This document shows, in pieces, positions 5,183-35,833 of a DNA stretch of 35,833 bases. Source of the DNA: a virus (lineage: Duplodnaviria; Caudoviricetes); IMG/VR virus record IMGVR_UViG_3300048850_000165, positions 1 to 35,833 of that record; one strand, 5' to 3'. Position 1 is the first letter of the stretch. Each line of letters begins with the position of its first letter. The translations under genes were made by a program, and so were the position numbers. The notes beneath the pieces are model-generated. The model saw nothing but the letters and a program-made list of their open reading frames with translations. It did not search any database and was not told the DNA's origin.

Positions 5183-5251
5183 CCGATGCCTCCAGGAGAA
5201 GGGTTTCCGAGCGCGTTGCAGATCAGTTGGGACGCGGGAGAGGGGTCCTGA

Positions 5252-18236: not shown

Positions 18237-19724
18237 TCAGTTGGTGGCGCTGGGCTGGTCGGCCTGGCGCTGCGCGCTGGCGGCCTGAAGCAGCCCGACC
18301 GCGGCCATGGCCGCGTTGAGCGAGAGGCCGTCGCGTTCCTGCAGCTCGCGGGCCAGTTCCATCCGGGCGCGAACGTCCGCAGTCGCGGCGCGGTCGCTGG
18401 CCTCCTGAGCGCGGGCCTTCACGGCGGCGCGCTCGACGGGGCTCATGCCGACCGCCTCCTGGGCGGCCTCGGTGTCGTAGATCCCGGCCTGGACGCCCTT
18501 GACCGCGGCGTCCATGGCCTGCGCGATGGCCGGAGTTGCGGCCTCGCGCCAGGCGACCTGCATGCGGTTGTAGTCCTGCGGCAGATCCGCGAGACGCACG
18601 CCGTCACGGGCAGCGACCGCCAGCCGCATCGCCCGGGCGTATGCCGGACCCCACGCGGTCTGCTTCTCCTGCGCCCGCAGGATCAAGGTCGTCTCGGCCG
18701 CGCGTCGGGCCTCGGCGGAGGCGGGGTTGTTCGTGTGGAGACCCAGATCGTCCGGCGGGAGCCCGCCAATCGCGGCGAGCGCCGACGTGAGCAGGTTGAT
18801 CCCCTGCACGAACCCGTCCAGGGTCGCCTCGGGGAACTGCCCGAACTCGACGCCCGTGCCGGCCAGCCAGGTCTTGCCCTTGGTGGCCTTCTCCCAGTAC
18901 GCCGCGACCTCGGCCTGGAGGCGCTCACGTTCATCCGGCGTACCGGTCGGGATCTGGATGCCCGTCGCGTAGCGGCGCGGGGTCGTGTAGAATTCCGCCG
19001 TCACCAGCAGGTCGGTTGCAAGCTTGTTGATGCCGTCCGCGATCGGAGCGATCGAGGCCAGCTCGGAGCGGCCGGTCCTGTTGAGCAGTCGCCCGCGGTT
19101 GACCAGCGGCACGACCGGAACCGCGCCGAGCGGGTTGACCAGCACCTGGTCGATCTCCCACGCGCCGCCCTTGTGAGCGACGTAGCGGATGACGCGGTCG
19201 CGGGTGTAGAGCGTCGCGAAGGAGTAGTCGCCGTCGTCCCAGCGCTTCAGCGCTGACCGGATCGAACTCCCGAAGGCGTCCCACTCGACGGTGACCTGGT
19301 GCGCGGACTCGACCGAGATGATCGGAGTCAGCGGGTCGTCGGGGTTGCCCCAGACCGCGAGGTAGCTGATCCCGTGGACCAGCGTGTCGATGTGCGCGTA
19401 GTGGCTCTCACCCGTCAGGTCGTTCGCGGTCCAGATCCGCCACAGCTCGTCGTCGGTTCCGCCACCCTGGCCGAGTCGGAAGCCCTCGACGTGTAGGCGG
19501 CGGGCAACCGAGTCGACGATGACCTCGGGCCAGTTGACGACCAGCGGCGTGAGGCGTGCCCCGACCTGCGCCCGAATCTCGGGAGCCATGAAGGAGAGGG
19601 GCTGATCGCCGGAGTAGTAGCGATCAACCCGGTCATAGGTGGTGTTCGCCAGCGCGAGCTGCTCGGCGAGACGCTGAATCTGCGACAGGTTCGGGTCCGT
19701 GGACGTGACAAGGGAGAGCGTCAC
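18237..19724 (-). CDS. portal protein (SPP1 gp6-like)
   Basis: YY.G.Q, NWP..IVD....RL.VEGF, G.VPVVPL.NR, GRSE motifs; GTG 19724 overlaps TerL stop. Confidence 0.92.
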   Translation of the reverse strand: MTLSLVTSTDPNLSQIQRLAEQLALANTTYDRVDRYYSGDQPLSFMAPEIRAQVGARLTPLVVNWPEVIVDSVARRLHVEGFRLGQGGGTDDELWRIWTANDLTGESHYAHIDTLVHGISYLAVWGNPDDPLTPIISVESAHQVTVEWDAFGSSIRSALKRWDDGDYSFATLYTRDRVIRYVAHKGGAWEIDQVLVNPLGAVPVVPLVNRGRLLNRTGRSELASIAPIADGINKLATDLLVTAEFYTTPRRYATGIQIPTGTPDERERLQAEVAAYWEKATKGKTWLAGTGVEFGQFPEATLDGFVQGINLLTSALAAIGGLPPDDLGLHTNNPASAEARRAAETTLILRAQEKQTAWGPAYARAMRLAVAARDGVRLADLPQDYNRMQVAWREAATPAIAQAMDAAVKGVQAGIYDTEAAQEAVGMSPVERAAVKARAQEASDRAATADVRARMELARELQERDGLSLNAAMAAVGLLQAASAQRQADQPSATN

Positions 19725-21121
19725 GGGAGCGCCACCATCCATCCCCCGCTGGTCTCGGTAGCCGCTACGGCTAGTCCGTGGAGTGCGAGCGCGGCGGCGA
19801 CCAGCGGAGAAATGTCCGCAGTCCCCTTCCGGTCGAGCACTCGTGAATCGGTCGTGGAGCGCCAGCGCGATGCGCGGACGCTGGTGTTGAGTGCTGGCTC
19901 GTTCCCGTGCCGGACAGTTCCGGCGGTGACCGCGTCCGAAAGCGCGTTGTGGGCTCGCGCCTGCTCGGCCGGGCCCGGCTCGATCGCGTCGATTACGAGG
20001 CCACGCGAGGCGGTGTCCACCACCGCGCGTCCACCCCAGGTCGCACGCAGATCGGCGGCACGGTCCGTCACCCAGCCGGCCGTCGGCCTGTAGTCGGCCA
20101 ACATCACGTGGGCGTGACCATCGGGTCGGCGCCACGCCACGGCGATTGCGGCCCAGGAGCGGTCAGGAGCCGTTGCGACCCCGAAGGCAGGCGTCCGACC
20201 GCGCTCTGCGTCCGGGTCCGCGAGAGCGGTCCAGGCGGCTCGGTCGATCGCTTCGGTCCCAGCGGCGCGATCCGCCCACAGTCCGAGTCGCTCGCGCGCA
20301 AACTCCTCGGCCGGAAGCGCGGCGCGCTCCGCGGCTACGAAGGACTCCCGGATCTGGAGCCCCATGCTCGGGTTTGCCTGCGCCCAGGCAGTCCGATCGT
20401 CTAGGTCGGCGCCGTCCTCGGCGGACCATTCGAAGTACGCAAGCGAGGGGTCAAAACCCCTCTGCCCACGCTCGCGGACGCGCCGCAGCGCATCCGAGTC
20501 GGCCATGCCGGCGCTGGACGTGTACCAGATCTGCGGGTTGGGTCGAGCCGACAGCGTCGGCAGGATCGCAGCGAGCGACTCGTCCGAGAGGTTGTATGCC
20601 TCGTCGATCACGACCAGGTCGGCGGAGAAGCCGCGGCCACTCTTGCTCGTGCGGGTCACGAACTTGAGGCGGGCGCCGCTGTTCAGCTCGATCGACTCTG
20701 CGCCGGATCCGGTCCGGATGATCCGGACCTGCTTGGCCAGCGTCTGCGAGCCCTCGATGAGGTCCCGCACCCGACGGAACGCCTCGGCGGCAGTCTTGAA
20801 CTCGTGTGCCGAGTGCAGGATCAGCGGAGGCGGCGCGTCCGGGTCGGACAGGAACAGCCAGGCCAGTTCCAGCGCCTCGAGGATCGACCCCTTGCCGTTC
20901 TGGCGAGGGACGATCAGGCCGACCTCGAAGGCAGCCCAGCTCGCGTCCGGGCGCTCGCCCATCGCCTCGCGGAGGACGTACTGCTGCCACGGGTGGAGCT
21001 GAAGACCTGCGAGCGCGGCCAGCTCTATCGCGTCGTCGCCCGCCGTGGAGACGGCGGGCGGAACGCTAGTGAGCCTTGGAAGCTGCGCGCCGACGCTGTC
21101 GCCGCTTGGCGAGGTCGTCAA
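19721..21121 (-). CDS. terminase large subunit
   Basis: LHPWQ, Walker A PRQNGKG, Walker B VVIDEA, ANPS.G, F.RERLG.W. Confidence 0.95.
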   Translation of the reverse strand: MTTSPSGDSVGAQLPRLTSVPPAVSTAGDDAIELAALAGLQLHPWQQYVLREAMGERPDASWAAFEVGLIVPRQNGKGSILEALELAWLFLSDPDAPPPLILHSAHEFKTAAEAFRRVRDLIEGSQTLAKQVRIIRTGSGAESIELNSGARLKFVTRTSKSGRGFSADLVVIDEAYNLSDESLAAILPTLSARPNPQIWYTSSAGMADSDALRRVRERGQRGFDPSLAYFEWSAEDGADLDDRTAWAQANPSMGLQIRESFVAAERAALPAEEFARERLGLWADRAAGTEAIDRAAWTALADPDAERGRTPAFGVATAPDRSWAAIAVAWRRPDGHAHVMLADYRPTAGWVTDRAADLRATWGGRAVVDTASRGLVIDAIEPGPAEQARAHNALSDAVTAGTVRHGNEPALNTSVRASRWRSTTDSRVLDRKGTADISPLVAAALALHGLAVAATETSGGWMVALP

Positions 21122-22625: not shown

Positions 22626-22769
22626 GCGTCTCCTATCGCGAATGGAGACAGCCGCTCGCCCGCCTATTCAGCGGACGCGCGGCTGTTAGGCGAATGGTAT
22701 CGCCCGACGCGCGAAAGCTCTGCCACACGAAGGCCCCGGATTCGCTGGCTGATGTCGCCCTTTTCCGAG

Positions 22770-22910
22770 TGCGGCCCGCACATGCTCGCCGTTGTAGTGC
22801 CGCTGATAGCCGAAGTCATCCCGCTATTTAGGTGGCCGACGCTGGAACGGCGGGTCCGCAATGACGTGTCCCTCACCAAGGAACTGACCGACGGGATGGG
22901 TAAGCGATCG
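22770..22910 (+). pseudogene. truncated homolog of the 24122-24787 membrane protein
   Basis: VVVPLIAEVIPLFRWPTLERRVRNDVSLTKELTDGMGKR vs VVVPLLAAAIPLFRWPTLERRTRRHVALIKELPDGMGKR; similarity stops after KR. Confidence 0.8.
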
Positions 22911-23027
22911 GGCGTTGCAAAACGGAAGTTGTGTTCCGATGATCCGGCGCAGCCGCGGACTCACTGATAAGCCTCCGGAACGCCCGTGACCGCGGATCAG
23001 TGACCCGACGGTGAAGTCTGGGAGTGA

Positions 23028-23558
23028 CTACTCCTTAGTCTCGCCCTCTTCGTCGGCTGGATCACGCTCCGTCAGCTCTAGCGTCATGGTGTCCTGAAAG
23101 AAGTCGTCCAGCTTGGCCAGATCCTCCAGGCTAGGCGGCTGAGGTCCGGGTATGTCGTCTCTAACGTTGTCCGTGTAGCGCTTAAGAACGGCCACCTGGT
23201 AGTCGGCAGCAGCCTTGACAACCCGTGACCGATTGGCCCGGTCAAAGAGCCACAGGAGTCCGCTTGCCGCGAAGAATGGCGCGGTGTATGGAGCGACCTC
23301 AAACACGATAGTGAGTGGGCTGGCATAGGAGAGGCGCTTGACTTCCATGTACCCGCCGCCCGAGGCAAGAAGCCACCGATCATCTTGCTCCCCATCCGCC
23401 CAATAGGCCGCTTGTTGGCCGATGTCAAGGGCGTGGCCGAGCCGATCCAGGTAGGAGAGTATGGACCCGAACTCATTGTCACTGTCCGGACTCTCGCGAC
23501 GTTGGACAGTTAGGAATAGATCAACGTCCTGGCGCGTATGGAAGTCGCTGAGGGTCAC
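23028..23558 (-). CDS. accessory hypothetical protein, one hydrophobic segment
   Basis: 176 aa, RLSYASPL motif; leaderless TAGGGT-N6-GTG. Confidence 0.7.
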   Translation of the reverse strand: MTLSDFHTRQDVDLFLTVQRRESPDSDNEFGSILSYLDRLGHALDIGQQAAYWADGEQDDRWLLASGGGYMEVKRLSYASPLTIVFEVAPYTAPFFAASGLLWLFDRANRSRVVKAAADYQVAVLKRYTDNVRDDIPGPQPPSLEDLAKLDDFFQDTMTLELTERDPADEEGETKE

Positions 23559-23849
23559 GCAGGCACCCTAGCGGCGCACAGCGTGAGGCGTAACTGAGCG
23601 ACGCCGCAACCGCCTTCCGCTGGGGCTCTCCGCTCAAGAAGTAGCTAACCCGGGAACCAACCGAGTCGACCATGTCGTCGAGAGGGGCCTTCGGGAACGC
23701 GACGAGCATCACGGATCGGTAACGATCCGGCGATCTGCTTGTCGGAAGGGGCTGCAAGTCGGGAGAAGTCTCATGGACACGCTCATCGACGCCATCGAAG
23801 CCCTCGCAGCCCTCGTCTCAGTCGTCACGCCGTGGTTGCAGAGGCAGGG

Positions 23850-23877
23850 TGTCGGCACCCGCAGAGAGCATGGCCGG
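23850..23877 (+). promoter_or_regulatory. PafBC-type leaderless promoter (variant -10)
   Basis: TGTCGG(23850-55)-N10-GAGCAT-N6-GTG(23878). Confidence 0.6.
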
Positions 23878-24084
23878 GTGCCCGACGACGACCGCCGCCC
23901 GTACACACCTCCGCGAGCGGTGGACGTCGAGCACGATGACGGGACCTGGTACCCGGGTTGGCAGGACGCATGGGTCCGGTGGCCGGATGGGAGCTGGCGC
24001 GCCTCGGTCAGCTACACCATCGCGCCCGGAACGAAGTACCTGCGATCCGTGCCGGCGGAGAAGGTGAGACTGCCCGACCGATGA
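23878..24084 (+). CDS. small Trp-rich SH3/Tudor-like protein
   Basis: 68 aa, DGTWYPG..DAW....DGSWRA.V.Y......VPAE.VR; alternative ATG at 23773. Confidence 0.7.
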   Translation: MPDDDRRPYTPPRAVDVEHDDGTWYPGWQDAWVRWPDGSWRASVSYTIAPGTKYLRSVPAEKVRLPDR

Positions 24085-24093
24085 CCCGGGCGC

Positions 24094-24121
24094 TGTCGGG
24101 CGTCCCATCTAGTCTCCGCGC
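24094..24121 (+). promoter_or_regulatory. PafBC-type leaderless promoter (full consensus)
   Basis: TGTCGG(24094-99)-N10-TAGTCT(24110-15)-N6-GTG(24122). Confidence 0.75.
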
Positions 24122-24787
24122 GTGGTCCTTCAGATCCTCAGCGTGGTCGTGCCCCTCCTCGCTGCGGCGATCCCGCTGTTCCGCTGGCCGACGCTGGAGA
24201 GGCGCACCCGCCGACACGTCGCGCTCATTAAGGAGCTGCCTGACGGCATGGGAAAGCGCTTCCGTGATGCGGTCGAGGATGAGCTGCGGGAGCTCGGCCA
24301 CCGGTCCGAGCAGCGACTCACCCGCAACGTCCGAGCGCTGGAGTTCGCCGTCCGGACCGCGATCGTCCTAGGGCTCTTCACGCTCAGCGCTGTCGCCTAC
24401 CGCCGCGTCACCGAGAGCGACAACGTCCTCATCACGCTCGGCCAGGGACTGTGGATCGCCCTCTCAATGGTCGTCTTCATCGGCCTGCTGTCGATGCTCT
24501 GGAAGGCAGCAGGGTCCCGCTACGAGATGGAGAGGCTCGGCCGTCGCGCGCAGGACGAGGGCAAGAGCCTCATCCTCATGAACGGTGCCTGGCAGGTGCT
24601 CAGCGATGAGGAGTACGAGGAGCGCAAGCGCCGCCGCAACTCCGGCGCCGCTAATCACGAAGAAGCCCCGCCGCAAGCAGCGACGGGGCAACTCGGAGAT
24701 AGCGGGTTCACTCCCCAGACGAACCAGCCAGAGCCAGACGGTGAAGCACCCGGGCATCCCCCTCTCAGTGACTCAGAGCGGAACTGA
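24122..24787 (+). CDS. accessory membrane protein (3 TM)
   Basis: 221 aa, N-terminal plus two internal hydrophobic helices, charged tail. Confidence 0.75.
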   Translation: MVLQILSVVVPLLAAAIPLFRWPTLERRTRRHVALIKELPDGMGKRFRDAVEDELRELGHRSEQRLTRNVRALEFAVRTAIVLGLFTLSAVAYRRVTESDNVLITLGQGLWIALSMVVFIGLLSMLWKAAGSRYEMERLGRRAQDEGKSLILMNGAWQVLSDEEYEERKRRRNSGAANHEEAPPQAATGQLGDSGFTPQTNQPEPDGEAPGHPPLSDSERN

Positions 24788-24988
24788 CGCCTCTCGCTCC
24801 GCGGTGCTCGCGGATCGCCGTGAAGGCGGCAGGCGGTCTTCGGCGGGGATCTGCGAGACAGTGGACGCCGACTCCGTCAACAGCGGAGCCAGCTCCTCGG
24901 CCAGCTGCTCGGGATCGCGCAAGCACGCCGCAGCCGTAGCGTGAACGGCGTCAGCCTGGACGCTGGTCAGCCGATCCCACACGCTCAC
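24773..24988 (-). CDS. small hypothetical phage protein, possibly truncated
   Basis: GTG 24988 overlaps upstream TGA; VSVWDRLTSVQADAV... Confidence 0.4.
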   Translation of the reverse strand: MSVWDRLTSVQADAVHATAAACLRDPEQLAEELAPLLTESASTVSQIPAEDRLPPSRRSASTAEREASVPL

Positions 24989-25452
24989 ACTCCGAAGACC
25001 CGGATCCCGTGTCGACCGCCGGCGCCGCGGGTCGGACCTTTTCGAGTCGGCAGCACCCCCGAAGCCTGCCAGGAAAGAAGGAGGTTGTTTGCCCGTCCGT
25101 AGCTGATGCACAACAGCTTGGATAGCTCCGCGACCGAGAAGCCGTAACCGTCGTCTTCTCGCATGACGGCCGCAACGGGATCGACCGTTCCGGCGTCCCG
25201 GATAGGCGCGACGATCTTGCCCCTTCGCGCAGCGGGCCCTGGCTCGTGCGTAAGTCCCGGGGTGTCGGACGGAACGGTCGTGACCTTCCATCGGGTGTCC
25301 GTCTCGGTGACGTGTCCCCATTCCCGGGCGTGCCTACTTGCCGTCACGAGGCTGTCGTCTCCGGCGCCCGACTGCACACATTCGCGGCACCGCCACGAGT
25401 CCAGCCGGGTCTCGTAGGTCTCCTCAATCGCAAATCCGACCGCACTATTCAT
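24985..25452 (-). CDS. Zn-finger plus winged-HTH phage protein
   Basis: WRCREC...H.....H then FSVAELSKLLCISYGRANNLL. Confidence 0.65.
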   Translation of the reverse strand: MNSAVGFAIEETYETRLDSWRCRECVQSGAGDDSLVTASRHAREWGHVTETDTRWKVTTVPSDTPGLTHEPGPAARRGKIVAPIRDAGTVDPVAAVMREDDGYGFSVAELSKLLCISYGRANNLLLSWQASGVLPTRKGPTRGAGGRHGIRVFGV

Positions 25453-25547
25453 TCAGCAGCTCCAGGCCGGGACACCGAACTTGTGCTTGTACCGCTGACC
25501 CTAAACGCCCATAAGGCCGTAGGACTAGGCGGCCCTACTAAGCGCCA

Positions 25548-26354
25548 TCAGGATCCGCTAGTTGGATCTTCACCTTTCGGTGTTCGACCAGGTCTGCCAT
25601 CTCGGTGAGCACGTGGCACACTATCGGCTTTGTTCTCGTCTTTTGCGAGGATCACGAAACGGCCATTTCCTGTGCGCAGAATTTCCACGCCGGGGCCGAT
25701 CGCCTTTCCGATCCGCTCCATGAAGTCGATGTCGCTGAGGGTCGTGACCACCCGGTCCGGCGCTCGTGAAGGAATAGGGATCCGCGGTCGGTTAACCGTC
25801 TGACTGGTGTTCCGGACCAGCTCGAGGATCTCCTCCAGCAACTCGCGGTCCTTGCGGTGAGGTGCCTCCGGCCGCCCCGGCTCCTGGACGGCCCGCAGCC
25901 GCTCCTGAAGCTGCGGCCAGAGCCCAGTAAAGGCGGCGCTGAGGGCCTGATCCGGCCGGGGACGCTCCAGCGCCCCGTTGAGCGACGTGACGACGTCCCG
26001 CATGCCGGCCTCGTCGGCCGACTTCATGTGGAACTGGCTCAGCGGGGACGTCACGTCCGACGTAGCCAGCCGCCACAGCAGCGGGACGACTCGCGCGGCG
26101 TCCACCGACTTGCTCAGGGCCCCGGCCTCGAACAGCAGCCACGGCGCCGAGAGGTTGGTCGGCGTGAGGCACAGGATCCCGAAGTCGCTGTCCTCCAAGG
26201 CGCCCGAGATCACCGAGCTCCAGCGGACGCCGGCCTCGTTGTCCCGCGCGGACATGTACGGCTCGACGCTCTCGAACATCGTCGGGAGCCAGTCGCGGAC
26301 GGCCTCTGCGATCTGACGGCTCTCCGGACCCGACCAGCTGATGAAGACCTTCAC
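25548..26354 (-). CDS. TIR-domain protein (putative NADase/anti-phage)
   Basis: KVFISWSG, G.RW...I...L..S.FGILCLTP.N, PWLLFEAGAL with catalytic-type Glu; leaderless TAGCCT-N7-GTG 26354. Confidence 0.9.
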   Translation of the reverse strand: MKVFISWSGPESRQIAEAVRDWLPTMFESVEPYMSARDNEAGVRWSSVISGALEDSDFGILCLTPTNLSAPWLLFEAGALSKSVDAARVVPLLWRLATSDVTSPLSQFHMKSADEAGMRDVVTSLNGALERPRPDQALSAAFTGLWPQLQERLRAVQEPGRPEAPHRKDRELLEEILELVRNTSQTVNRPRIPIPSRAPDRVVTTLSDIDFMERIGKAIGPGVEILRTGNGRFVILAKDENKADSVPRAHRDGRPGRTPKGEDPTSGS

Positions 26355-26420
26355 GCAGGTGAGGCTATGAGACCTACACGGCCGGGACATGTCGACGCTC
26401 TCAGCTAGCCTCCTGGCGTG
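26352..26420. promoter_or_regulatory. divergent pseudo-palindromic promoter; PafBC-type on plus strand
   Basis: TGTCGA(26390-95)-N10-TAGCCT-N6-GTG(26418); mirror TAGCCT on minus strand. Confidence 0.7.
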
Positions 26421-27392
26421 CCTCAGCCGGACGCCACTCGCGAGGATGTGCTCAGCGCGATCGCAGAGTTCGACGGTCTCGGCCGAGAGGCGTTCCTCGC
26501 TCGCTATGGCTTTAGACCTGCTCGCGACTACTTCATCAACCACGGTGGCCGCTTCTACGACTCCAAGCCGGTGCTCGCCGCCGCGCACGGCAACCGACAC
26601 GGGACGCCGCTGGCAGCCACAGACTTCTCAGGCGGAGACGTTGGCGCCGCACGCGTGCTCCGCGGACTCGGCTTCGTGGTCACCGAACCCAGCCCGGACT
26701 GGTCCGAGGACGAGATCACGCTCGCCTGCGACCTCGTCGCGCAGAACGACTGGAAGGAACTGCGCCCCAACCGTCCGGAGGTGATCGAGCTGTCCGCACT
26801 CCTGCAGCGGCTGTCCCGTCACCCGCAGGAACTCCGCGGACCACGCTTTCGAAACGCGAATGGGGTCGCTCGGAAGACGTCCGACATCTTCACGCAGCAC
26901 CCGGAGCACACCGGCGCGCGGACCCGAGGCAACAAGCTGGACCGCAGCGTCCTTGAGCGTTTCCTCGCGGACCCCGCCGGCATGGCGCAGCGCGCCGCGG
27001 CGATCCGATCGGCCGCTGAAGCGCCGGAGACCAACGAGCCGGTCCCTGATCTCGACCTGGACGCGACCGCTGACGAGGGCCGCCTACTGGAACGCAACCA
27101 CCTTGTCCGCGAGCGCAATCCCAAGCTGCGCCAGCAGAAGATCACCGCCGTTCTCGCGGCCGGCCTCGCGATCGCGTGTGAAGTTTGCGCCTTCGACTTC
27201 GAGACGATCTACGGCGAACGCGGCCGCCAGTACATCGAAGTCCATCACCGGACCCCACTGCATGCGTCCGGTCGCCAGAGGACTCGACTGACCGACCTGG
27301 CGCTCCTCTGCAGCAACTGCCACCGGATGATCCATCGCTATTCGCCGTGGTTGACGGTTGAGGAGCTGGCGGACCAGGTCCGGTCGACGTAA
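26418..27392 (+). CDS. McrA-like (type IV) HNH restriction endonuclease
   Basis: ScoMcrA-head-like N-terminus (EFD.LG...FL..YGF, YDSK, FSGG, LGF), W..DE..LA middle domain, CEVC.FDF...YG...IEVHH..P...LLCSNCHRMIH. Confidence 0.9.
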   Translation: MPQPDATREDVLSAIAEFDGLGREAFLARYGFRPARDYFINHGGRFYDSKPVLAAAHGNRHGTPLAATDFSGGDVGAARVLRGLGFVVTEPSPDWSEDEITLACDLVAQNDWKELRPNRPEVIELSALLQRLSRHPQELRGPRFRNANGVARKTSDIFTQHPEHTGARTRGNKLDRSVLERFLADPAGMAQRAAAIRSAAEAPETNEPVPDLDLDATADEGRLLERNHLVRERNPKLRQQKITAVLAAGLAIACEVCAFDFETIYGERGRQYIEVHHRTPLHASGRQRTRLTDLALLCSNCHRMIHRYSPWLTVEELADQVRST

Positions 27393-27500
27393 TCAGCCTG
27401 GCGACGTATGCAGGTCACCTCTCAGATCGACGCGCCAACGTCCCTCGGTAAATCCACCCGGCCTCGCCGTTTCCGTGACTCAGAGTCTGTCTGCGTCCGC

Positions 27501-27785
27501 TCACACGGATGGATGGAAGGGGCGGCGCAGGCGCGACTCCAGCCGGTCGGACTTGTCTGGGTCGTTGAAAAGGTTGAGCAGGCAGTGGCTGAAATCTCCG
27601 GACCACAGCTCCCGGCCCATTCGGGTCTCCAGGCAACCAATGCACAGCAGACCCGCCCCGCCGTCCGGGCCGAACTCTTCCCAGATGTGGTTATGGACCA
27701 TGTAGTCCTCGGCGGCGGTGTCCGCGCCACAGTCGGAACACGGTCCCCGACTGAGCAGCCGCTGTCCTCGTCTGCGCCCCGTCAC
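27501..27785 (-). CDS. small Zn-binding phage protein
   Basis: CSDC...YMV...W...LCIGCLE.R.GR.L...DF; GGAGG RBS before GTG 27785. Confidence 0.75.
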   Translation of the reverse strand: MTGRRRGQRLLSRGPCSDCGADTAAEDYMVHNHIWEEFGPDGGAGLLCIGCLETRMGRELWSGDFSHCLLNLFNDPDKSDRLESRLRRPFHPSV

Positions 27786-27820
27786 GCCGCCTCCTGCTCC
27801 GCGATCGTCGACGTTCGGCC

Positions 27821-28711
27821 TCACTCTCGACTTGCGAGTCCGCCGCTGAACCACTGCACGAGGGTCACGGCGAGGGACACCGCGACCGTCGCCTCCTCCA
27901 TCGAGACGTTGCCGGGCGCCGACGGCTGTCCGCCGTGCCGGTCGTGCTGGCCATGCCAGAGCAGCCGCATCATCCCGATGATCACGTCACGGGACGACGC
28001 GTCGTCGTGCTCGCGGGTCATCGGCAGGCGCCAGTTCCCCTGGTTCTCAACGTCTCGCAGGACCGTGCCCAGCGTGGCCTTCTCGTTTCTCGGCGACACC
28101 ACCGGAATCGCCGCGTCCTCCACGGACAAGATCGCCAGCCGGTACGCCTCACTAGGGCTGGGTTCCAGGCCGTAGAGCTCCTCCCACGCCTTGGCGAGCC
28201 GCACGCCGGCCCGGCCGGAGCGCTGCATGACCGAGTCCGCGGCGAGCTGGACCCCGGCCGGAACCCGCCGGACCAGCCCCGGTCGTCCTGCCCTCCGCCC
28301 CACCTCCCAGGCGCTGCGGCTGCGGGTCAGCAGCTCGTCCAGCTCCGCCGCCGAGGCGTGCCCGCCGTGCCCGAGCAGGTAGTCGACGATCTGGAGCGGG
28401 CGCGGGTGCCTGTAGAAGGCGGAGATCGCAGACGTCAGGAGACGGTCGCCCGCGACCGTACTGACCCCAGTTGCCCTCAGCGTCTGCATCGGGATGCGGA
28501 GCGTTTGACTCATGCTCTCGGTGAGAGCGCTGTCGAGCATGGCCGCTGAACCGCTGCGGTCCGGGAACCTCCGGTACTCGGTGAGCCCGCGACGCACCCA
28601 CGCCCAGAGTGCGCTGGCCATCCACTCGGGCACGCCGTCGTGGAGAGCGTCGTACTCCGCGATCTCCTCGTCGGTCTCAACACCGAACGGCCGCCAGGTC
28701 TCCTCGGTCAC
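27821..28711 (-). CDS. abortive-infection-like protein (AbiJ/Abi_C, HEPN-like C-terminus)
   Basis: DGVP.W...LW N-terminus; P..AY..AI..VE, ATLG.V, Q.DRHG, EEA..AV..AVTLVQWF C-terminus; family call is by resemblance only. Confidence 0.6.
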   Translation of the reverse strand: MTEETWRPFGVETDEEIAEYDALHDGVPEWMASALWAWVRRGLTEYRRFPDRSGSAAMLDSALTESMSQTLRIPMQTLRATGVSTVAGDRLLTSAISAFYRHPRPLQIVDYLLGHGGHASAAELDELLTRSRSAWEVGRRAGRPGLVRRVPAGVQLAADSVMQRSGRAGVRLAKAWEELYGLEPSPSEAYRLAILSVEDAAIPVVSPRNEKATLGTVLRDVENQGNWRLPMTREHDDASSRDVIIGMMRLLWHGQHDRHGGQPSAPGNVSMEEATVAVSLAVTLVQWFSGGLASRE

Positions 28712-28739
28712 GCGGCGAGTGTGTCAAACCACACCGACA
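28712..28739 (-). promoter_or_regulatory. PafBC-type leaderless promoter
   Basis: minus strand TGTCGG(28739-34)-N10-CACACT-N6-GTG(28711). Confidence 0.7.
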
Positions 28740-28901
28740 GTTCGCCGGAACCGCAGGCGGTCGGTCCGCGTCTCGGAGCTACTCCCTAGGGAGACCGCGG
28801 CGGGTACCCAAGCCGTCCGCCCGCCGGCTGCACACATCGCTGCATCGGGCGTTGCCTCCGCCGGCCGTGCGCCCGGTGCTCCTTGCCTACTTCCCGCGGC
28901 C

Positions 28902-29822
28902 CTACGAGGACGGTGCCGGCGCGATCGTCGCGGGCGGCAGTGGCGTCGGCGTCAGTGTCGGAGCTGGGCCACCCGGCAGCTCCAGTGGCCGTCCAATCCA
29001 GTCCCAGGCGAGGCCGGACGTGAGCAGTATGGCAATCACCCAACCCATAGCCAGCGGGAACGCAAGCCAGAAGCGAGGCCCGGAGGCCAGGGGCAGGATG
29101 TGCTGGATGAGCCGGCCTCGGATCCAGGTGATTCGACCCGTTAGACGCGCATTCAAGGCGGCAGTGATGCCGGTCAAGATCGTGATGTTGTAGAGGCAAA
29201 GCAGCATGATGACGAGAACACCCAGGGCCTTGTAGGCCAGAAAGAACATGACTGACGAGTCATATCGATGGATCAGCTCCGGCACGGCCTCTAGCCAAGA
29301 ATACTGGGCTACTTCGCCTCTTAGATCACTGATCGTCTGACCCTGGTAGCGGCCAAGCGTGACACCCAGGATGCCGCACAGGCCCACGACCGCTGTGATC
29401 GCACTGAGCACCAGCCACAGGCGCACCTGAGGAATGGGGAGCCTAACTGTTCGACGGTGGGTCAACAGCGCGAATGTAGCCAGACCAACGTCAATTCCGA
29501 TCACAACGTTAACAACCCAGAAGTAGGCACTCAGGAAGGCGGCAGCGGTGATGGCGATCGCCGCCAGCGCACCGAACAGGAACAGCCAGACGTCGTCGTC
29601 GGAGTCTGGACGAGGTTTCGCGCTGGTTGGCGTTCCCTTCGGGACGACTGGAGGCGCGGGAGGAGGCGGCGCTGCGGCCTTCTCAATGAATACGTAGACG
29701 TTCCCGCCGCCGGCCCCTGCGCTCGGAGCCTCCAACCATGGCTTAACGATCAAGTACTCAATGATGAGCACAAGAACGCTGACGATCAGCGCGCCGTACG
29801 GGCCGGTCAGAATGTCCTTCAC
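28902..29822 (-). CDS. accessory multi-pass membrane protein
   Basis: about 6 hydrophobic segments, Pro-rich linker and tail, lower-GC codon usage; start uncertain (GTG 29822 or 29963). Confidence 0.75.
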   Translation of the reverse strand: MKDILTGPYGALIVSVLVLIIEYLIVKPWLEAPSAGAGGGNVYVFIEKAAAPPPPAPPVVPKGTPTSAKPRPDSDDDVWLFLFGALAAIAITAAAFLSAYFWVVNVVIGIDVGLATFALLTHRRTVRLPIPQVRLWLVLSAITAVVGLCGILGVTLGRYQGQTISDLRGEVAQYSWLEAVPELIHRYDSSVMFFLAYKALGVLVIMLLCLYNITILTGITAALNARLTGRITWIRGRLIQHILPLASGPRFWLAFPLAMGWVIAILLTSGLAWDWIGRPLELPGGPAPTLTPTPLPPATIAPAPSS

Positions 29823-29931
29823 GCGAGCTTGATACCCCGACGTCGGGACTTCCGCGCGTTTCTGATCCGGATACGGCGTGTCCCCCGCCAGAGGCCCTCC
29901 CCGGCCAGTTACCCCCAGCTCCCCTCCGCAG

Positions 29932-29980
29932 CGGCTCTCAGGGTCACTCCTGCCGCTCTTCACCCCTTCCGCGCCAGCTC
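29932..29980. repeat. direct repeat copy 1 (47/49 identical to 30812-30860)
   Basis: contains identical 39-mer GGTCACTCCTGCCGCTCTTCACCCCTTCCGCGCCAGCTC. Confidence 0.95.
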
Positions 29981-30217
29981 GACGAGGTACCGGGCGCGCC
30001 CAGTGAGATCCCGAGGCACTCGCGGATCTCGCTGACCCGCACGTCACGTCGCAGCAGCGGCCTCACCCGCGACACCTGCCGGTCCCGCTCCACCCGGTCG
30101 GCAGCCACGGCGTAGGACGCTCGGACGCCGTCACCGATCTGCCGCCGGTGCTCCTCGGTCAGCAGGCGCTTTCCAAGTCCTTCTTCGACTTCTGGCTCGG
30201 GGTGGGGGCGGGGTCAC
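29960..30217 (-). pseudogene. frameshifted small NUMOD3-like/HTH gene, copy 1
   Basis: KRLLTEEHRRQIGDGVRASY...LLRRDVRVSEIRECLGISLG / RARYLVELARKG*; 5' boundary approximate. Confidence 0.65.
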
Positions 30218-30254
30218 TTCCTGGGGACGTTCCCCGCCTCTCACGTCCGCGAGG

Positions 30255-30656: not shown

Positions 30657-30811
30657 GCTCTGCTCCTCGGTGCGGAGCCACGCCAGCACCGGGAGGGCAC
30701 GCACGACCACGGCCGGTGTGGTCGTGGCGTGCGGTGGCGACTCGATCGAGCCGACGAGGAGAGCGTAGTCGGTCTCCACAGTCGACGGAGCCGAAGCCGA
30801 AGCCCCCCCCC

Positions 30812-30860
30812 CGGCTCTCCAGGTCACTCCTGCCGCTCTTCACCCCTTCCGCGCCAGCTC
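30812..30860. repeat. direct repeat copy 2
   Basis: 880 bp from copy 1, same orientation. Confidence 0.95.
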
Positions 30861-31088
30861 AGCCAGGTGCCGGCCTCACCCGCTCCCGATCTGCAGCTCC
30901 CCCCGATCTCCCCGACCGGCATGCCGTGCCGCAGCAGTGCGCCCGAACCCGGGCGACCTGCCGGTCCTGTGCCGGCGCGGGGGCGCAGGACCCTCGGACG
31001 CCGTCACCGATCCGTCGCTTCGTCTCCTCCGTCAGCAGGCGTCCGGGATCGGCGGCTGAACCGACGCCCGGTCCTCGACGGCGGTCAC
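30840..31088 (-). pseudogene. multiply frameshifted NUMOD3-like/HTH gene, copy 2
   Basis: GRLLTEETKRRIGDGVRGS...DRQVARVR / LLRHGMPVGEI / ELQIGSG*GRHLAELARKG*; GTG 31088 coupled to upstream TGA. Confidence 0.65.
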
Positions 31089-31820: not shown

Positions 31821-33890
31821 TCAGGCGAGGTCGACCATCCGCGTCATCGCGTAGTCGCTCTCTCGGGAGCCCGGGATCTTGATCTTGGCCCAGGTTCCAC
31901 CTCGTTCGTGCAGCATCCGGCGGGCCGAGAGCACGAAGTTGGAACCCACTTCGCCGGCCGGGTCGCCGAACCCGAGCAGGCGCGCACGCTCCTTGATGAG
32001 CTGCTCAACGCGCGCCTTCCGGACGCCGTCGCCGTTCCGGAGACCACGTGCCTCCCACTCGGTGTCGGACAGGATCGCGATCCAGGCCGATTCCTCGGTG
32101 CCGGTCTCCTCGCCGAGCAGTGCACGCACCACGGTGGCGACCGGGTCGGCGTCCGCAACGAACTGCTCACGCTGCTCCTGCATCGCCTCCGGGAGGTCGC
32201 CGAGCCCGCCCTCTCGGCCGAACGTGGCCAGCCCCGTCAGAACCCACCGCAGGATCGCGGAGCGCTCCTGAGCGGACTCCAACACCCGGATCGCCCAGTT
32301 CTCGTCCGCGCGGTCCTCCGGCTTCGCCGCCGCCCACTCCTTGGGGTTCTTGCTCTGGATCCAGAACCGGTGCTCGAACGGCACGACGTGGATGCGGGCG
32401 GCGAGCGCCGTGTCTCCGGGCGGGAACGTCGGTGGGTGGTTGCTGCTCATGAACAGCGTGGCCGAGAAGTAGTAGCGGATCGGGTTGGCGTACTTGGCGG
32501 TGCCGGACACCGACTCGCCGCCGGTCACCCGCTTCACGATCTCGGCGTCCAGCATCTCCCCGTCCGGCAACTCCGACATGATCACGAACCGCTTGCTGCG
32601 GGCCTGCGCCATGAACAGCTCGCCGGCTCCCGAGCGCTGGCCGTTGCGAGTGAGGGCCTGTGACGACACCACCAGCGAGTAGGGCGCGAACACGCCGCGC
32701 TCGCCGGCGATGCACTCCTGGAGGGTCGACTTCGCGGTATCGCCAGGTCCGTACTGCCAGACCATCGACTTGCCGGCTACTCCGGGCGTTCCGAGGAGGG
32801 CCGCTCCGTAGCGCTTCTGGAGGTACGCCCGCACGTCCGGGTTCGGCAGGATCTTGGCGACCCCGCGCTCCCACTCCGACTCCCCCGCGTTGCGCAGCTG
32901 GTCCCGCCATGCCATGTCCAGGGCGCTGGTCATGTACATGAGCGGCGAGAACGGCTGCAGGTTCACCTCGCCGGTCGCCTTCACGTCCTCCAGGTCCACC
33001 ACGCCGTCCTGGAGGACGAGCCAGCGGGTGAAGGAGTCCCACTTGTCCTCGGACACCGCCAGGCGAGCCCGGAGGTCGCTGCGCATGACCCGGAACTTGC
33101 CCCCGAAGATCGCGTCCACCAGGGCCTTGGCCTCGGTCAGGGGAGTGATCAGCTGGGCGCGCTGACGGAGCGCGTCCTGGTACGCGTCCTTGACCTGCTG
33201 CGGCTCGTTGTTCCCGGGCTTCGGCGGCGCCGGCGTGAGCACGTCCGCCACGCCCCGCATGAAATCCACGGCCCGGTTGAGCGCCATGGTGAAGCGGTCC
33301 ACCATCGCGTCCACCTGGTCCAGGACCGTCACGCCGTGGCTGCCGAACCACTCCCCCTCCTGCACCCACACACCCCGGGAGGGGTCGTAGAGGCGAAACG
33401 GCTTGCCCTTGATCGAGTCCACCGACCGGGCGATGTGACCCACCGCGGCAGCGAGGTGGTCGAGCGCCCGCTTCTCGGTGCGCGGGATGCGGTTGATGAA
33501 GTTCCTCACCTGCTCACTGGGCATCTGGTCCCCGAGCAGCTCTTCCAGGAACCGACCCGCGGCGAACGGGTCCTTGAACACCGGCCGCGTCTCCCAGCGA
33601 CGAGCTGCCTCGGCCAGGCCGGTGTTCCACCACACGGCGACGTCCCAGTCGATCTCGTCGACCGCGTCCACGAGCATCGCGTCGACCATGTGGTTGAGGT
33701 GGACATCGTCGACGTCGGGTGTCTTGTCCGCCCACGAGAACACGTCACGGGGCCACCGCCGACCGGCCTGCGCGGCGTGCAGGTCGTAGTACTCCGACTC
33801 CCGAGCGTCCGGCGGGGGCGGCGGCACCAGGTAGGGCATAGCCGGGGTCTCGTTGCTGTCGGGCATCGCGTTGGTCTCCAGGGCGGTCAC
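31821..33890 (-). CDS. D5/P4-family primase-helicase-type protein (SF3 helicase)
   Basis: Walker A-like GPGDTAKST, Walker B FVIMSE, K..TGG, LFMSSNH.P, RI.VVPF; GTG 33890 with GAGGAGG RBS. Confidence 0.9.
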   Translation of the reverse strand: MTALETNAMPDSNETPAMPYLVPPPPPDARESEYYDLHAAQAGRRWPRDVFSWADKTPDVDDVHLNHMVDAMLVDAVDEIDWDVAVWWNTGLAEAARRWETRPVFKDPFAAGRFLEELLGDQMPSEQVRNFINRIPRTEKRALDHLAAAVGHIARSVDSIKGKPFRLYDPSRGVWVQEGEWFGSHGVTVLDQVDAMVDRFTMALNRAVDFMRGVADVLTPAPPKPGNNEPQQVKDAYQDALRQRAQLITPLTEAKALVDAIFGGKFRVMRSDLRARLAVSEDKWDSFTRWLVLQDGVVDLEDVKATGEVNLQPFSPLMYMTSALDMAWRDQLRNAGESEWERGVAKILPNPDVRAYLQKRYGAALLGTPGVAGKSMVWQYGPGDTAKSTLQECIAGERGVFAPYSLVVSSQALTRNGQRSGAGELFMAQARSKRFVIMSELPDGEMLDAEIVKRVTGGESVSGTAKYANPIRYYFSATLFMSSNHPPTFPPGDTALAARIHVVPFEHRFWIQSKNPKEWAAAKPEDRADENWAIRVLESAQERSAILRWVLTGLATFGREGGLGDLPEAMQEQREQFVADADPVATVVRALLGEETGTEESAWIAILSDTEWEARGLRNGDGVRKARVEQLIKERARLLGFGDPAGEVGSNFVLSARRMLHERGGTWAKIKIPGSRESDYAMTRMVDLA

Positions 33891-34267
33891 GCCGCCTCCT
33901 CGTTCGGACGGGTAACGGGCGGGAAGAGGTCGTCCAGGAGGTCCTTCTTGACCGGGCGGGGGATGTGGGCCTCGGCCCACTCCCGGGTCATGAGGACTCC
34001 GGCGATCCACCACGCCTCCGAGCGGTCCGGGCGGCGGTACTCGCGCTCGATGACCTCGTCCGTTCGGATCGCGCCGAAGTCGAACAGCGCGAGCGAGATC
34101 ACGAGGTCCACGTCCTCCCAGGCGACGCGGTACGCGCGTCCGGGGCGCCCGGGCGCGTGCGGCAGACCCAGCGGGTTCAGGTGCTGGCGCTCACAGGTGT
34201 CCGGGTATCGGATCATCGCGGCGTACAGGTCCAGCCGCTCGATGGAGGGCAGGTCGTCGTCGGTCAC
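33887..34267 (-). CDS. hypothetical early phage protein
   Basis: 126 aa, GTGA-coupled at both ends. Confidence 0.7.
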   Translation of the reverse strand: MTDDDLPSIERLDLYAAMIRYPDTCERQHLNPLGLPHAPGRPGRAYRVAWEDVDLVISLALFDFGAIRTDEVIEREYRRPDRSEAWWIAGVLMTREWAEAHIPRPVKKDLLDDLFPPVTRPNEEAA

Positions 34268-34476: not shown

Positions 34477-34598
34477 CGGGTCATCCCCACGCGGCCAGCG
34501 AGCGCGATCGCCGTCGCGGCGAAGGCGATCAGCGGCATGAGCGTCCAGCCGGCCATGAGCCCGAGGACGCCTGCGATGACGAGCAGGAGGCCGGTCAC
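34473..34598 (-). CDS. 41-aa hydrophobic peptide (below ORF-track cutoff)
   Basis: VTGLLLVIAGVLGLMAGWTLMPLIAFAATAIALAGRVGMTR; GTGA overlaps at both ends. Confidence 0.65.
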   Translation of the reverse strand: MTGLLLVIAGVLGLMAGWTLMPLIAFAATAIALAGRVGMTR

Positions 34599-34795
34599 AG
34601 CGACTCGCCCTTGCGGGGAGCCGGGATGGCCTGGCCCTGGATGAGGCGCTGCACCGACTCAGCCGTGACGCGGACGGACTTCGCGGTGACCTGGACGCCG
34701 TCCAGGCGACCGTCCGCGACCATGCGCCGGACGGTCAGGAGGGAGACCGAGAGCAGCTCGGCGGTCTCCTTGTACGAGTAGAGGAGAGGTGTCAC
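34595..34795 (-). CDS. xis: excisionase-family HTH DNA-binding protein
   Basis: LYSYKETAELLSVS..TVRRMV.DG.L.......VRV....V (HTH_17/MerR-like). Confidence 0.85.
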   Translation of the reverse strand: MTPLLYSYKETAELLSVSLLTVRRMVADGRLDGVQVTAKSVRVTAESVQRLIQGQAIPAPRKGESL

Positions 34796-35026: not shown

Positions 35027-35833
35027 CTACGGCACCCGGCCGCGGACGGTCCATGCCCGGGCGGTCAGGGCGATCGAGCCGTCGTCCCGCGCCGGCAGCG
35101 TGTGGCGGAGCTCGTCCCCGATCCCCGTCCGCACCTCCTCCGCCACGGTCGCGAGGTACGCCGGCGCGTGCCCGGTGCCGCCGAGGAAGGGCTGCCAGTA
35201 GTCGTCGAAGTCCGCGAACACGGTGGGGACGTCGACCGCGCCGGTGACCACCTCCTCGAGCCCGGCGCCGATGAACACCCGGCGGAGGGGCTCGGGCGCG
35301 CAGACCGGGAAGCGGGCGCCCTCGTCGAGCCCGGCACCGTCGGGGTCGATCAGCGCAGCGGCGTCCCAGAAGGCCCGCATCAGCTGCATGCCGCCGGCGT
35401 AGTCCCACACGTAGGCGGCCACGACCGCGCCCGGGACGGCGACCCGGCGCCACTCGGCCACGGCGGCGCTCGGGTCGGGCAGGAAGTTGAGCACCAGGCC
35501 GGAGACGACCGCGTCCGCCGAGCCGTCGGCCAGGGGCAGGGCCGCGGCGTCACCGGCGGAGAACACCGCGCGCGGGTCCGGCACGTGCGCCGCGGCGTGC
35601 CGGACGAACGCCGTCGACCGGTCGATCCCCCGCACGGCCGACGGTTCGGCGAGGTCGAGGACGGTGCGGGTCAGCACCCCCGTGCCGCAGCCCACGTCCA
35701 GCCATCGTCGTCCGGGCGGCACGCCGAGCTCGGCGACGAACCGCCGCGCGACCGGCCGGCTCCACCGGCCGACGTAGGCCTCGTAGCGGTTCCCGTCCGC
35801 CCAGGAACCGATCCCCGCCGTCGTCGCGTCCAT
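35027..35833 (-). CDS. host class I SAM-dependent methyltransferase
   Basis: WLDVGCGTG, GID.S, GDA.ALP, D.VVSGLVLNF; very high GC host-like codon usage. Confidence 0.93.
   Translation of the reverse strand: MDATTAGIGSWADGNRYEAYVGRWSRPVARRFVAELGVPPGRRWLDVGCGTGVLTRTVLDLAEPSAVRGIDRSTAFVRHAAAHVPDPRAVFSAGDAAALPLADGSADAVVSGLVLNFLPDPSAAVAEWRRVAVPGAVVAAYVWDYAGGMQLMRAFWDAAALIDPDGAGLDEGARFPVCAPEPLRRVFIGAGLEEVVTGAVDVPTVFADFDDYWQPFLGGTGHAPAYLATVAEEVRTGIGDELRHTLPARDDGSIALTARAWTVRGRVP

What the first reader, a model, noticed from the sequence alone, without database searches (positions are those of the whole stretch)
23850..28739. Prophage defence-island genes appear wired to the host PafBC DNA-damage activator
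Seen: four genes are preceded by identical geometry ending exactly at a GTG start: TGTCGG-N10-GAGCAT-N6 (23878, SH3-like), TGTCGG-N10-TAGTCT-N6 (24122, membrane), TGTCGA-N10-TAGCCT-N6 (26418, HNH nuclease), TGTCGG-N10-CACACT-N6 (28711 minus, Abi-like). Only one is a perfect consensus match; I saw none before core phage genes. Known: TGTCGG-N10-TA-N3-T is the LexA-independent RecA-NDp promoter activated by the WYL-domain factor PafBC in mycobacteria, and other WYL regulators (BrxR, CapW) control defence operons. Inference: unrelated, possibly toxic cargo genes carry no regulator of their own and borrow the host nucleic-acid/damage sensor, forming an inducible prophage defence regulon. I do not know of this being described.
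Basis: partly seen in the sequence, partly recalled or inferred. Interest (0 to 1): 0.87.

Follow-up and report, generated by a model that had tools for sequence, protein, structure and literature searches.

The report
Prophage cargo under host damage switch
A virus lying dormant in a soil actinobacterium carries four unrelated extra genes, two of them predicted anti-virus nucleases, each behind a sequence matching the promoter read by the host's DNA-damage switch PafBC, so the host's own alarm likely turns them up, although related prophages do not show the same cluster.

Summary
Four unrelated cargo genes of a near-complete actinobacterial prophage (host probably Geodermatophilaceae) start 6 nt behind a site matching all conserved positions of the PafBC promoter, tGTCgg-N10-tA-N3-T. 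The prophage has no WYL gene. A PafC-type domain scores over the cut-off in 154 of 158 family genomes, and in Blastococcus the motif heads repair genes. The cargo includes a ScoMcrA-head/HNH nuclease and a predicted HEPN RNase; the other two genes have no known function. The HEPN family carries the site in 7 of 15 leaderless homologues from distant genera. The wider claim is weak: four other cargo genes, including a TIR gene, lack the leaderless site; five defence families scored 0 of 93; 15 other prophage regions, related phages and a viral-collection scan show no excess. Defence neighbourhoods in the family are about 2.4-fold enriched. Best reading: independently acquired genes that came with, or kept, host PafBC promoters and are likely raised on DNA damage. 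Nothing is tested at the bench. A WYL activator driving defence genes is published (DdaA), and this scan noted PafBC-type promoters on other mobile elements before. New variant of a known kind.

The parts
22630..30240 (.). Cargo (moron) island of about nine genes between the replication genes (primase 31821-34013) and the late module (terminase 19721-21121); limits approximate
   Evidence: PHROGs/Pfam layout; none of its genes found in 92 loci of related phages and prophage terminases except through separate family searches
23850..23871 (+). PafBC-type promoter 1 (TGTCGG-N10-GAGCAT), 6 nt before the GTG
   Evidence: motif definition
23878..24084 (+).
   Evidence: no Pfam, PHROG, PADLOC or NCBIfam match
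24094..24115 (+). PafBC-type promoter 2 (TGTCGG-N10-TAGTCT), perfect consensus
   Evidence: same site before the closest family homologue, L618
24122..24787 (+). 221-aa membrane protein of an unnamed small family; homologues mostly 120-240 aa and begin at the same residue
24665..24689 (-). 10-pair hairpin with a T tract on the minus strand, terminator-like, inside the unconserved tail of the membrane ORF
   Evidence: 4 found, 3.8 expected in shuffles, so weak
25548..26354 (-). TIR-domain protein, divergent from the HNH gene, leaderless -10 but no PafBC element
   Evidence: Pfam TIR_2, PADLOC TIR-TM E 1.7e-63, upstream sequence
26390..26411 (+). PafBC-type promoter 3 (TGTCGA-N10-TAGCCT)
26418..27392 (+). 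324-aa nuclease: ScoMcrA-like N-terminal domain, three-helix middle domain, C-terminal HNH; likely type IV (modification-dependent) restriction enzyme, substrate unknown
   Evidence: PADLOC mREase_IV E 1.6e-14 (13), PDB 5zmm E 1.2e-24 and 6ghc E 8.7e-9 (59), VIA Z 10.8, rmsd 1.6, 69 aligned
27501..27785 (-). 94-aa protein with two CxxC motifs and a ribosome-binding site, just downstream of the HEPN gene; possibly co-transcribed
   Evidence: no Pfam match
27811..27832 (-). Loose fifth site (AGTCGA-N10-GAACGT) overlapping the HEPN stop codon, 25 nt before the CxxC gene; may be chance
   Evidence: 52 loose matches in the window
27821..28711 (-). 296-aa stand-alone protein with a C-terminal HEPN fold and invariant R249/H256 (R-X6-H); predicted abortive-infection RNase
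   Evidence: alignment; model (pLDDT 75.7, pTM 0.48); VIA Z 12.1, rmsd 3.2, 112 aligned to 2hsb; source names 'abortive infection protein-like C-terminal'
28718..28739 (-). PafBC-type promoter 4 (TGTCGG-N10-CACACT), also with an extended -10 TG
   Evidence: same site in 7 of 15 leaderless homologues
23028..23558 (-). 176-aa unknown cargo gene, leaderless -10, no PafBC element
28902..29822 (-). 306-aa membrane cargo gene; GTC at the right distance but the -10 lacks its final T, so not counted
22752..22967 (+). Decayed partial copy of the membrane gene (70% over 128 nt), without an intact promoter match

Best explanation
Four separately acquired cargo genes of this prophage each sit behind a site matching the PafBC promoter, so the host's PafBC likely raises their transcription when single-stranded DNA appears, which would increase a predicted restriction nuclease and a predicted HEPN RNase in the lysogen. 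Steps: (shown) four leaderless sites with the -26 GTC, 10-nt spacer and -10; no WYL gene in the prophage; PafBC and a repair-gene regulon with this motif in the likely host family. (Established, PMC8635444 and PMC11804915) ssDNA-bound PafBC adapts SigA RNA polymerase to such promoters. (Inferred) the host is a Geodermatophilaceae member; transcription starts at or next to the GTG; DNA damage or an invading phage supplies the ssDNA. (Inferred) three promoters lack an extended -10 and would depend on PafBC; the HEPN promoter has the TG extension, as do 14 of 15 leaderless homologues, so it likely has a basal level that PafBC boosts, with the RNase still needing its own trigger. (Inferred) the genes came one by one from the host's accessory pool, where this promoter is about 2.4-fold commoner near defence genes than genome-wide; the result is primed defence for part of the island, not a dedicated phage regulon.
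For: Geometry identical at four sites, all conserved positions met. Blastococcus genome G001: 78 matches against 25 with the spacer lengthened by 3; of 27 motif-led ORFs scanned, 8 have repair or replication domains and 4 are DUF222 proteins. Tandem pafB-pafC in G001 with the recognition-helix residues spaced as the paper lists them; HTH_PafC over the cut-off in 154 of 158 family genomes. Best named homologues are Geodermatophilaceae: 77% Blastococcus, 77% Geodermatophilus, TIR 75% in G042. HEPN family: GTC at the exact place in 7 of 15 leaderless homologues, background 0.024, spacers only 36% alike, at least 3 changes forced on the tree. Closest family homologue of the membrane gene has the site. 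Defence-centred family loci: 19 distinct sites in 463 kb against 1-6 for control spacers and 7.9 expected at the G001 rate, Poisson p 5e-4; they head C5-methylase and Hypoth_Ymh genes among others.
Against: No transcript or binding data. Host not shown directly: terminase is at best 47% identical to family prophages. The closest chromosomal homologues of the HEPN gene (L019, L515) and of the HNH gene (L211, L212) lack the GTC. The site is rare in the HNH family (2 of 43 usable high-GC loci, controls 0-1 for spacers 4-16), in the SH3-like family (2 of 30) and in the membrane family (1 of 9). It is absent at the starts of Mrr (0 of 29), TIR (0 of 9), Abi_C (0 of 13), HNH_2 (0 of 27) and NOV_C (0 of 15); Hypoth_Ymh has 4 of 29 against up to 3 in a control spacer. 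Two of the four genes have no defence evidence. The baseline rests on one genome.
Confidence: 0.6

Rival explanations
1. The promoters are working PafBC promoters but serve the prophage's own induction: DNA damage starts lytic growth and the cargo is expressed then, to suppress co-induced or superinfecting phages or to cut modified host DNA.
For: PafBC responds to the same damage that usually induces prophages (established; PMC8223512 passages). The island lies between the early and late modules.
Against: Three of the four genes face against the phage's minus-strand transcription and have their own promoters, as lysogen-expressed cargo does; homologues with the site are chromosomal and show no hit to this phage's structural genes within 10 kb; no core phage gene has the site (5, 85).
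Confidence: 0.15
2. Passive baggage: each gene brought its promoter from the host accessory pool, nothing selects for joint control here, and four in one island is the tail of a distribution picked out by a scan of very many windows.
For: At the density seen near family defence genes, 0.31 sites are expected in 7.6 kb and four or more has p 3e-4, which a scan of some 250,000 windows will meet. The island shows turnover (decayed copy at 22752-22967). Fifteen other prophage-like regions have 10 sites in 737 kb, no more than the genome rate; viral collection 42 against 49 control.
Against: All four sites keep every conserved position; the closest chromosomal relatives of two genes lack the GTC while the prophage copies have it; the product of the low family frequencies makes four at once unlikely without some filter.
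Confidence: 0.17
3. They are ordinary constitutive leaderless SigA promoters and the upstream hexamer is incidental or read by another factor.
For: Leaderless -10 elements precede other island genes too; the bare motif is not enriched in the window; two of the -10 boxes lack the first T.
Against: GTC at exactly 10 nt in four of about eight cargo starts with a trinucleotide frequency near 0.024; recurrence in the HEPN family; the same geometry marks repair genes in Blastococcus; no WYL gene in the prophage.
Confidence: 0.08

Closest known systems
PafBC-dependent (RecA-NDp) promoters of mycobacteria and other Actinobacteria, 'sigma adaptation' (PMC8635444 passages; PMC8223512 passages)
   Same: tGTCgg-N10-tA-N3-T; -26 element plus SigA -10; the paper's recA alignment includes Blastococcus saxobsidens
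   Different: Here on prophage cargo, before predicted defence and unknown genes rather than repair genes; untested
DdaA of Moraxellaceae (PMC12392091; abstract, passages and sections 29 and 31 read)
   Same: A chromosomal WYL activator of the damage response also drives unlinked defence genes; motif in 27.2% of Acinetobacter RM promoters, i.e. also patchy
   Different: Other regulator, motif about 50 bp upstream, no sigma adaptation, shown by experiment, targets are RM and CRISPR loci rather than prophage cargo
BrxR and CapW WYL repressors of BREX and CBASS (PMC9122601, PMC9122588, PMC11662680; search listing and abstract starts only)
   Same: WYL sensing of nucleic acid coupled to defence expression
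   Different: Repressors encoded beside the system they control; this island encodes no WYL protein
PafBC and mycobacteriophage resistance (Rafique et al. 2025, PMID 41134923; seen only as a citation in PMC12848934)
   Same: Links PafBC to phage resistance in Actinobacteria
   Different: Content not seen; whether it names defence genes or prophage targets is unknown to me
ScoMcrA / EcoKMcrA type IV restriction endonucleases (PDB 5zmm, 6ghc)
   Same: ScoMcrA N-terminal domain (45% identical in the structural match) and a McrA-type HNH domain
   Different: 324 aa against 560; only ScoMcrA residues 5-96 match, and a three-helix domain of unknown role sits in the middle
HEPN-domain abortive-infection and toxin RNases (HEPN rows 2hsb, 1wol, 3o10; also Csm6, RnlA, LsoA, AbiV, HepS lower)
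   Same: C-terminal helical HEPN fold with an invariant R-X6-H
   Different: No Pfam, PADLOC or NCBIfam match; N-terminal domain unassigned; no partner gene identified

Membership tests
PafBC-dependent promoter | GTC triplet of the -26 element | tested here: met
   4 of 4 sites
PafBC-dependent promoter | 10-nt spacer to a SigA -10 with conserved A and final T | tested here: met
   4 of 4; two lack the weakly conserved first T
PafBC-dependent promoter | Host encodes PafB and PafC | tested here: inconclusive
   Host genome not held; likely family has HTH_PafC over the cut-off in 154 of 158 genomes and tandem pafB-pafC in G001
PafBC-dependent promoter | Transcription start about 6 nt behind the -10 | not testable with these tools
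   Only contigs of one RNA run, no start sites; GTG lies at the expected place
PafBC-dependent promoter | PafBC binding and damage induction lost in a pafBC mutant | not testable with these tools
   Needs bench work
Locally WYL-controlled defence island (BrxR/CapW type) | WYL regulator gene in the island | tested here: not met
   No PF13280 match in the provirus record rated 99% complete
   10 sites in 737 kb of 15 prophage-like regions; 3 in 734 kb of 72 high-GC terminase loci against 2-12 in controls; 42 against 49 in the viral collection
   TIR gene lacks it
Type IV McrA-like restriction endonuclease (26418-27392) | McrA-type HNH domain with zinc-binding cysteines | tested here: met
   Pfam HNH; invariant C254, C257, H276, H277, C298, N300, C301, H302 (52); 6ghc match
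Type IV McrA-like restriction endonuclease (26418-27392) | A modification-reading domain and modification-dependent cleavage | tested here: inconclusive
   Only the ScoMcrA N-terminal part matches; reader domain not identified; activity untested
HEPN RNase (27821-28711) | HEPN fold | tested here: met
   VIA Z 12.1, rmsd 3.2, 112 aligned; HEPN-titled entries at ranks 1, 3, 4, 8 (68). Helical bundles can reach such Z by arrangement alone, and Foldseek gave no E below 0.001 (67)
HEPN RNase (27821-28711) | R-X4-6-H catalytic motif (definition recalled) | tested here: met
   R249 and H256 invariant in 27 of 27 aligned sequences
HEPN RNase (27821-28711) | RNase activity and abortive-infection phenotype | not testable with these tools
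   Needs bench work

The most novel reading that the evidence does not exclude
The prophage is under selection to collect cargo whose promoters answer to the host's ssDNA sensor: it holds PafBC-wired versions of the HNH and HEPN genes while their closest chromosomal relatives lack the GTC. The island would be a regulator-free inducible immune module in which unrelated genes converge on one host activator, the two unknown proteins would be new defence factors, and PafBC would act as a general phage-infection alarm for actinobacterial accessory defence genes.
Probability: 0.25. Interest if true: 0.7.

Novelty: new variant of a known kind. Interest (0 to 1): 0.45.

Why it matters
How stand-alone, potentially toxic defence genes on prophages are kept low and raised when needed is mostly unknown. 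If these four promoters depend on PafBC, the actinobacterial damage activator would also tune mobile defence cargo without any local regulator, extending the DdaA principle to a second phylum and a second activation mechanism. The promoter is short and easy to scan for, so it could flag candidate defence genes among unknown actinobacterial ORFs (the HEPN family here is one such). The claim is cheap to test with reporters in a non-pathogenic laboratory strain. If the cluster is only baggage, the finding reduces to a known promoter on new genes.

Tried and rejected
Bulk enrichment in the viral collection: 42 stretches for a 14-base version of the pattern against 49 with the spacer lengthened by 3; most are low-GC chance hits; distinct high-GC hits before an ORF of 60 aa or more were 5 of 32 against 2 of 43, too few to use. 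Homologues of the HEPN and membrane genes in viral contigs: none confirmed. TGTG as a tolerated variant of the -26 element (seen in L211 and L515): 50 matches against 50 in the control spacer over three genomes, rejected. SOS boxes (motif recalled): 17 matches with up to two mismatches against 28 expected, none perfect, rejected. Cassette or insertion-sequence ends as the source of the hexamer: no repeat family links the four sites. Expression: one RNA run of another study has five short pieces in the island region and three 151-nt pieces in 20 kb of core phage DNA; sparse contigs, possibly DNA, no evidence either way. Foldseek on the HEPN model gave nothing at E below 0.001. Atlas search for the 68-aa protein gave only unnamed actinobacterial clusters with a low recognition value; for the membrane protein the Atlas gave no result, so its fold is open. 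The gene-start test misses defence genes that lie downstream in an operon, and 12 of 27 NOV_C and 3 of 30 HNH_2 loci were dropped because their 5' ends lay outside the locus. No complex prediction was run: no binding claim between proteins is made. Paper searches that found no description of PafBC promoters on prophage cargo; the library lacks most subscription papers.
Full report
Setting. The window is a tailed actinobacterial phage genome, 67.7% GC, read almost wholly on the minus strand: primase 31821-34013, terminase 19721-21121, portal, capsid, tape measure, endolysin. The record is classed as a provirus, 99% complete. Between the replication genes and the late module lies a cargo island of about 7.6 kb (about 22630-30240). 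The host is not given. The best named homologues of the cargo are Blastococcus (77%) and Geodermatophilus (77%); the TIR gene is 75% identical to one in family genome G042; the 68-aa protein has matches in 37 of 158 family genomes. The terminase reaches only 47% to family prophages. Geodermatophilaceae is therefore likely, not shown.

Observation. The four sites are as described. The published motif is tGTCgg(N10)tA(N3)T, lower case being at most 50% conserved, with PafB reading the GTC triplet (PMC8635444, passages); all four sites meet every conserved position. The bare motif is not over-represented in the window (5 matches, 2.95 expected). Tied to a start codon 6 nt behind the -10 it occurs four times, all in the island, and 0 of 300 simulations exceeded two; the pattern was chosen after the fact. 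Homologues begin at the same residues, so the GTGs are the likely starts and the transcripts would be leaderless. No WYL domain is encoded in the record.

Is the switch present and does it read this motif in the likely host? In Blastococcus genome G001 a pattern of this geometry has 78 matches against 25 with a 13-nt spacer. Of 53 stricter matches, 30 became loci and 27 ORFs were scanned: 8 carry repair or replication domains (RadA-like ATPase, HhH-GPD glycosylase, YbaB, DEAD helicase, NAD ligase, exonuclease with GIY-YIG, DnaX-type clamp loader, methyladenine glycosylase; gene names are my reading of the domains) and 4 are DUF222 proteins. G001 has tandem pafB-pafC, and its PafB helix has the residue spacing the paper gives for E42, A43, R46, R50, K52, R56. 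HTH_PafC scores over the cut-off in 154 of 158 family genomes (the tally includes unpublished G083, G099 and G100, and the model also rings in unrelated control genomes, but most family hits are near E 1e-40).

What the genes are. 26418-27392 has a ScoMcrA-like N-terminal domain (Z 10.8, rmsd 1.6), a three-helix middle domain with only weak matches, and a McrA-type HNH domain: a likely type IV restriction enzyme with unknown substrate. 27821-28711 has no profile match, but its model (pLDDT 75.7) aligns by its C-terminal half to HEPN domains (Z 12.1) and R249 and H256 are invariant in 27 sequences: a predicted HEPN RNase of abortive-infection type. The 68-aa and the membrane protein belong to small unnamed families; in genomes G078 and G060 members of the two families lie within 2 kb of each other. 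Neither has a defence match. A TIR gene with a strong PADLOC match lies divergent from the HNH gene and lacks the -26 element, as do two other unknown cargo genes; the CxxC gene behind the HEPN gene has only a loose, leadered match.

Does the promoter travel with the genes? HEPN family: 23 loci were fetched from genome contigs. Six were left out of the exact-position test (two cut at the 5' end, four without a placeable start); of the other 17, 15 have a leaderless -10 and 7 of these have GTC at the exact place (one with a CTG start), in Terrabacter, Nocardia, Planctomonas, Janibacter and three less-named Actinobacteria. Background GTC frequency is 0.024; spacers are 36% alike; the tree needs 4 changes, at least 3 forced. 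A frame-based count gave 6 of 19, controls 0-2. Fourteen of the 15 also have an extended -10 TG. Against this, the two closest homologues (L019, L515) lack the GTC. HNH family: 2 of 43 usable high-GC loci, 1 of 105 low-GC loci, and neither of the two full-length family homologues. SH3-like: 2 of 30 (one, L224, is from unpublished G083 and is out of frame with the match), plus one more copy seen in G064. Membrane family: 1 of 9 usable, the closest. So the site is under selection in the HEPN family and sporadic in the other three.

Is it general for defence genes or prophages? At their own starts, Mrr 0 of 29, TIR 0 of 9 (one locus from unpublished G100), Abi_C 0 of 13, HNH_2 0 of 27, NOV_C 0 of 15, Hypoth_Ymh 4 of 29 with up to 3 in a control spacer. 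Counting every site in 145 defence-centred family loci gives 19 in 463 kb, 41 per Mb, against 17 per Mb in G001 (p 5e-4, one baseline genome); these head two C5-methylase genes, three Hypoth_Ymh genes, DUF222 genes and unknowns. Fifteen prophage-like regions in 14 family genomes, host flanks included and some with weak terminase matches, have 10 sites in 737 kb, several before host-type genes. Seventy-two high-GC loci of related phages show 3 against 2-12 in controls (mostly structural genes), and the viral collection shows 42 against 49. The window's four in 7.6 kb is unusual even at the defence-island rate (p 3e-4), but the window was picked from a very large scan.

Mechanism. Most likely (0.6): the genes were acquired singly from the host's accessory pool with PafBC-type promoters; ssDNA from damage or from an invader activates host PafBC, which adapts SigA polymerase to these promoters and raises a restriction nuclease, a HEPN protein and two unknown proteins in the lysogen. 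The first three promoters lack an extended -10 and would be PafBC-dependent; the HEPN promoter would have a basal level. Promoter identity I put near 0.85; the defence outcome is the weaker step. Rivals: use during the prophage's own induction (0.15), unselected baggage (0.17), constitutive promoters (0.08).

Prior work. The promoter class and its mechanism are known (PMC8635444 and PMC8223512, passages; PMC11804915, abstract start and two reference passages). DdaA shows by experiment that a global WYL damage activator drives RM and CRISPR genes, with the motif in 27.2% of RM promoters (PMC12392091, abstract, passages, two sections). PMC12848934 (passages) cites Rafique et al. 2025 for a role of PafBC in phage resistance; I saw only that citation. 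Eight searches found no account of PafBC promoters on prophage cargo; regulon tables of Mueller et al. 2018, which I did not see, may already list defence genes. Earlier notes of this scan report PafBC-type promoters on a giant mobile element and on a Microbacterium plasmid, and PafBC-like pairs on islands of other phyla; they are unchecked leads, not support.

Verdict. Real feature; known promoter class in a new setting; interpretation partly supported. New variant of a known kind, interest 0.45.

Noticed in passing
L320-L326, L329-L331, L335-L339, L343 (metagenome loci), about 45 nt upstream of the HNH gene: A subgroup of the HNH homologues that starts at the middle domain shares a near-perfect palindrome of about 28 bp (core GGCAAC..TTGCC) just before a leaderless -10: probably an operator of another, unknown regulator; no shared neighbouring gene was obvious.
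   Followed up: partly
window 22779-22906 and 24131-24258: A 70%-identical decayed copy of the 5' part of the membrane gene lies 1352 bp upstream, a sign of repeated cargo insertion at this spot.
   Followed up: partly
window 29923-30168 and 30803-31041: Direct repeats about 880 bp apart (79-84% identical in blocks) flank the 30255-30827 gene at the right edge of the island; the public DNA run's contigs break there.
   Followed up: no
L538:2038-3132, L541:2917-3147, L564, L584, L586 (Geodermatophilaceae genomes): PafBC-type promoters head C5-cytosine methylase genes beside HNH_2 nucleases and three Hypoth_Ymh genes, suggesting some chromosomal restriction-modification loci are damage-inducible as in Moraxellaceae.
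   Followed up: partly
L002:5364-6293, L015:9387-9884, L017:11244-12461, L020:13285-14109: Neighbours of HEPN homologues in other genera also carry the promoter; one has a weak PADLOC PD-T7-5 match, the others have no profile match.
   Followed up: partly
L633:4106-4330 and 4444-5409 (G064:C334): A divergent pair, an SH3-like homologue and a 322-aa gene running into an Abi_C match, each with its own PafBC-type promoter: a small chromosomal parallel to the window.
   Followed up: no
window 25548-26354: Stand-alone TIR protein matching the PADLOC TIR-TM profile over its first 203 residues; homologues in 9 of 158 family genomes; no partner identified.
   Followed up: partly
window 1-35833: No integrase or repressor was recognised in the ORFs scanned although the record is classed as a near-complete provirus; an excisionase-type HTH lies at 34595-34795 and a methyltransferase at 35027-35833.
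   Followed up: no
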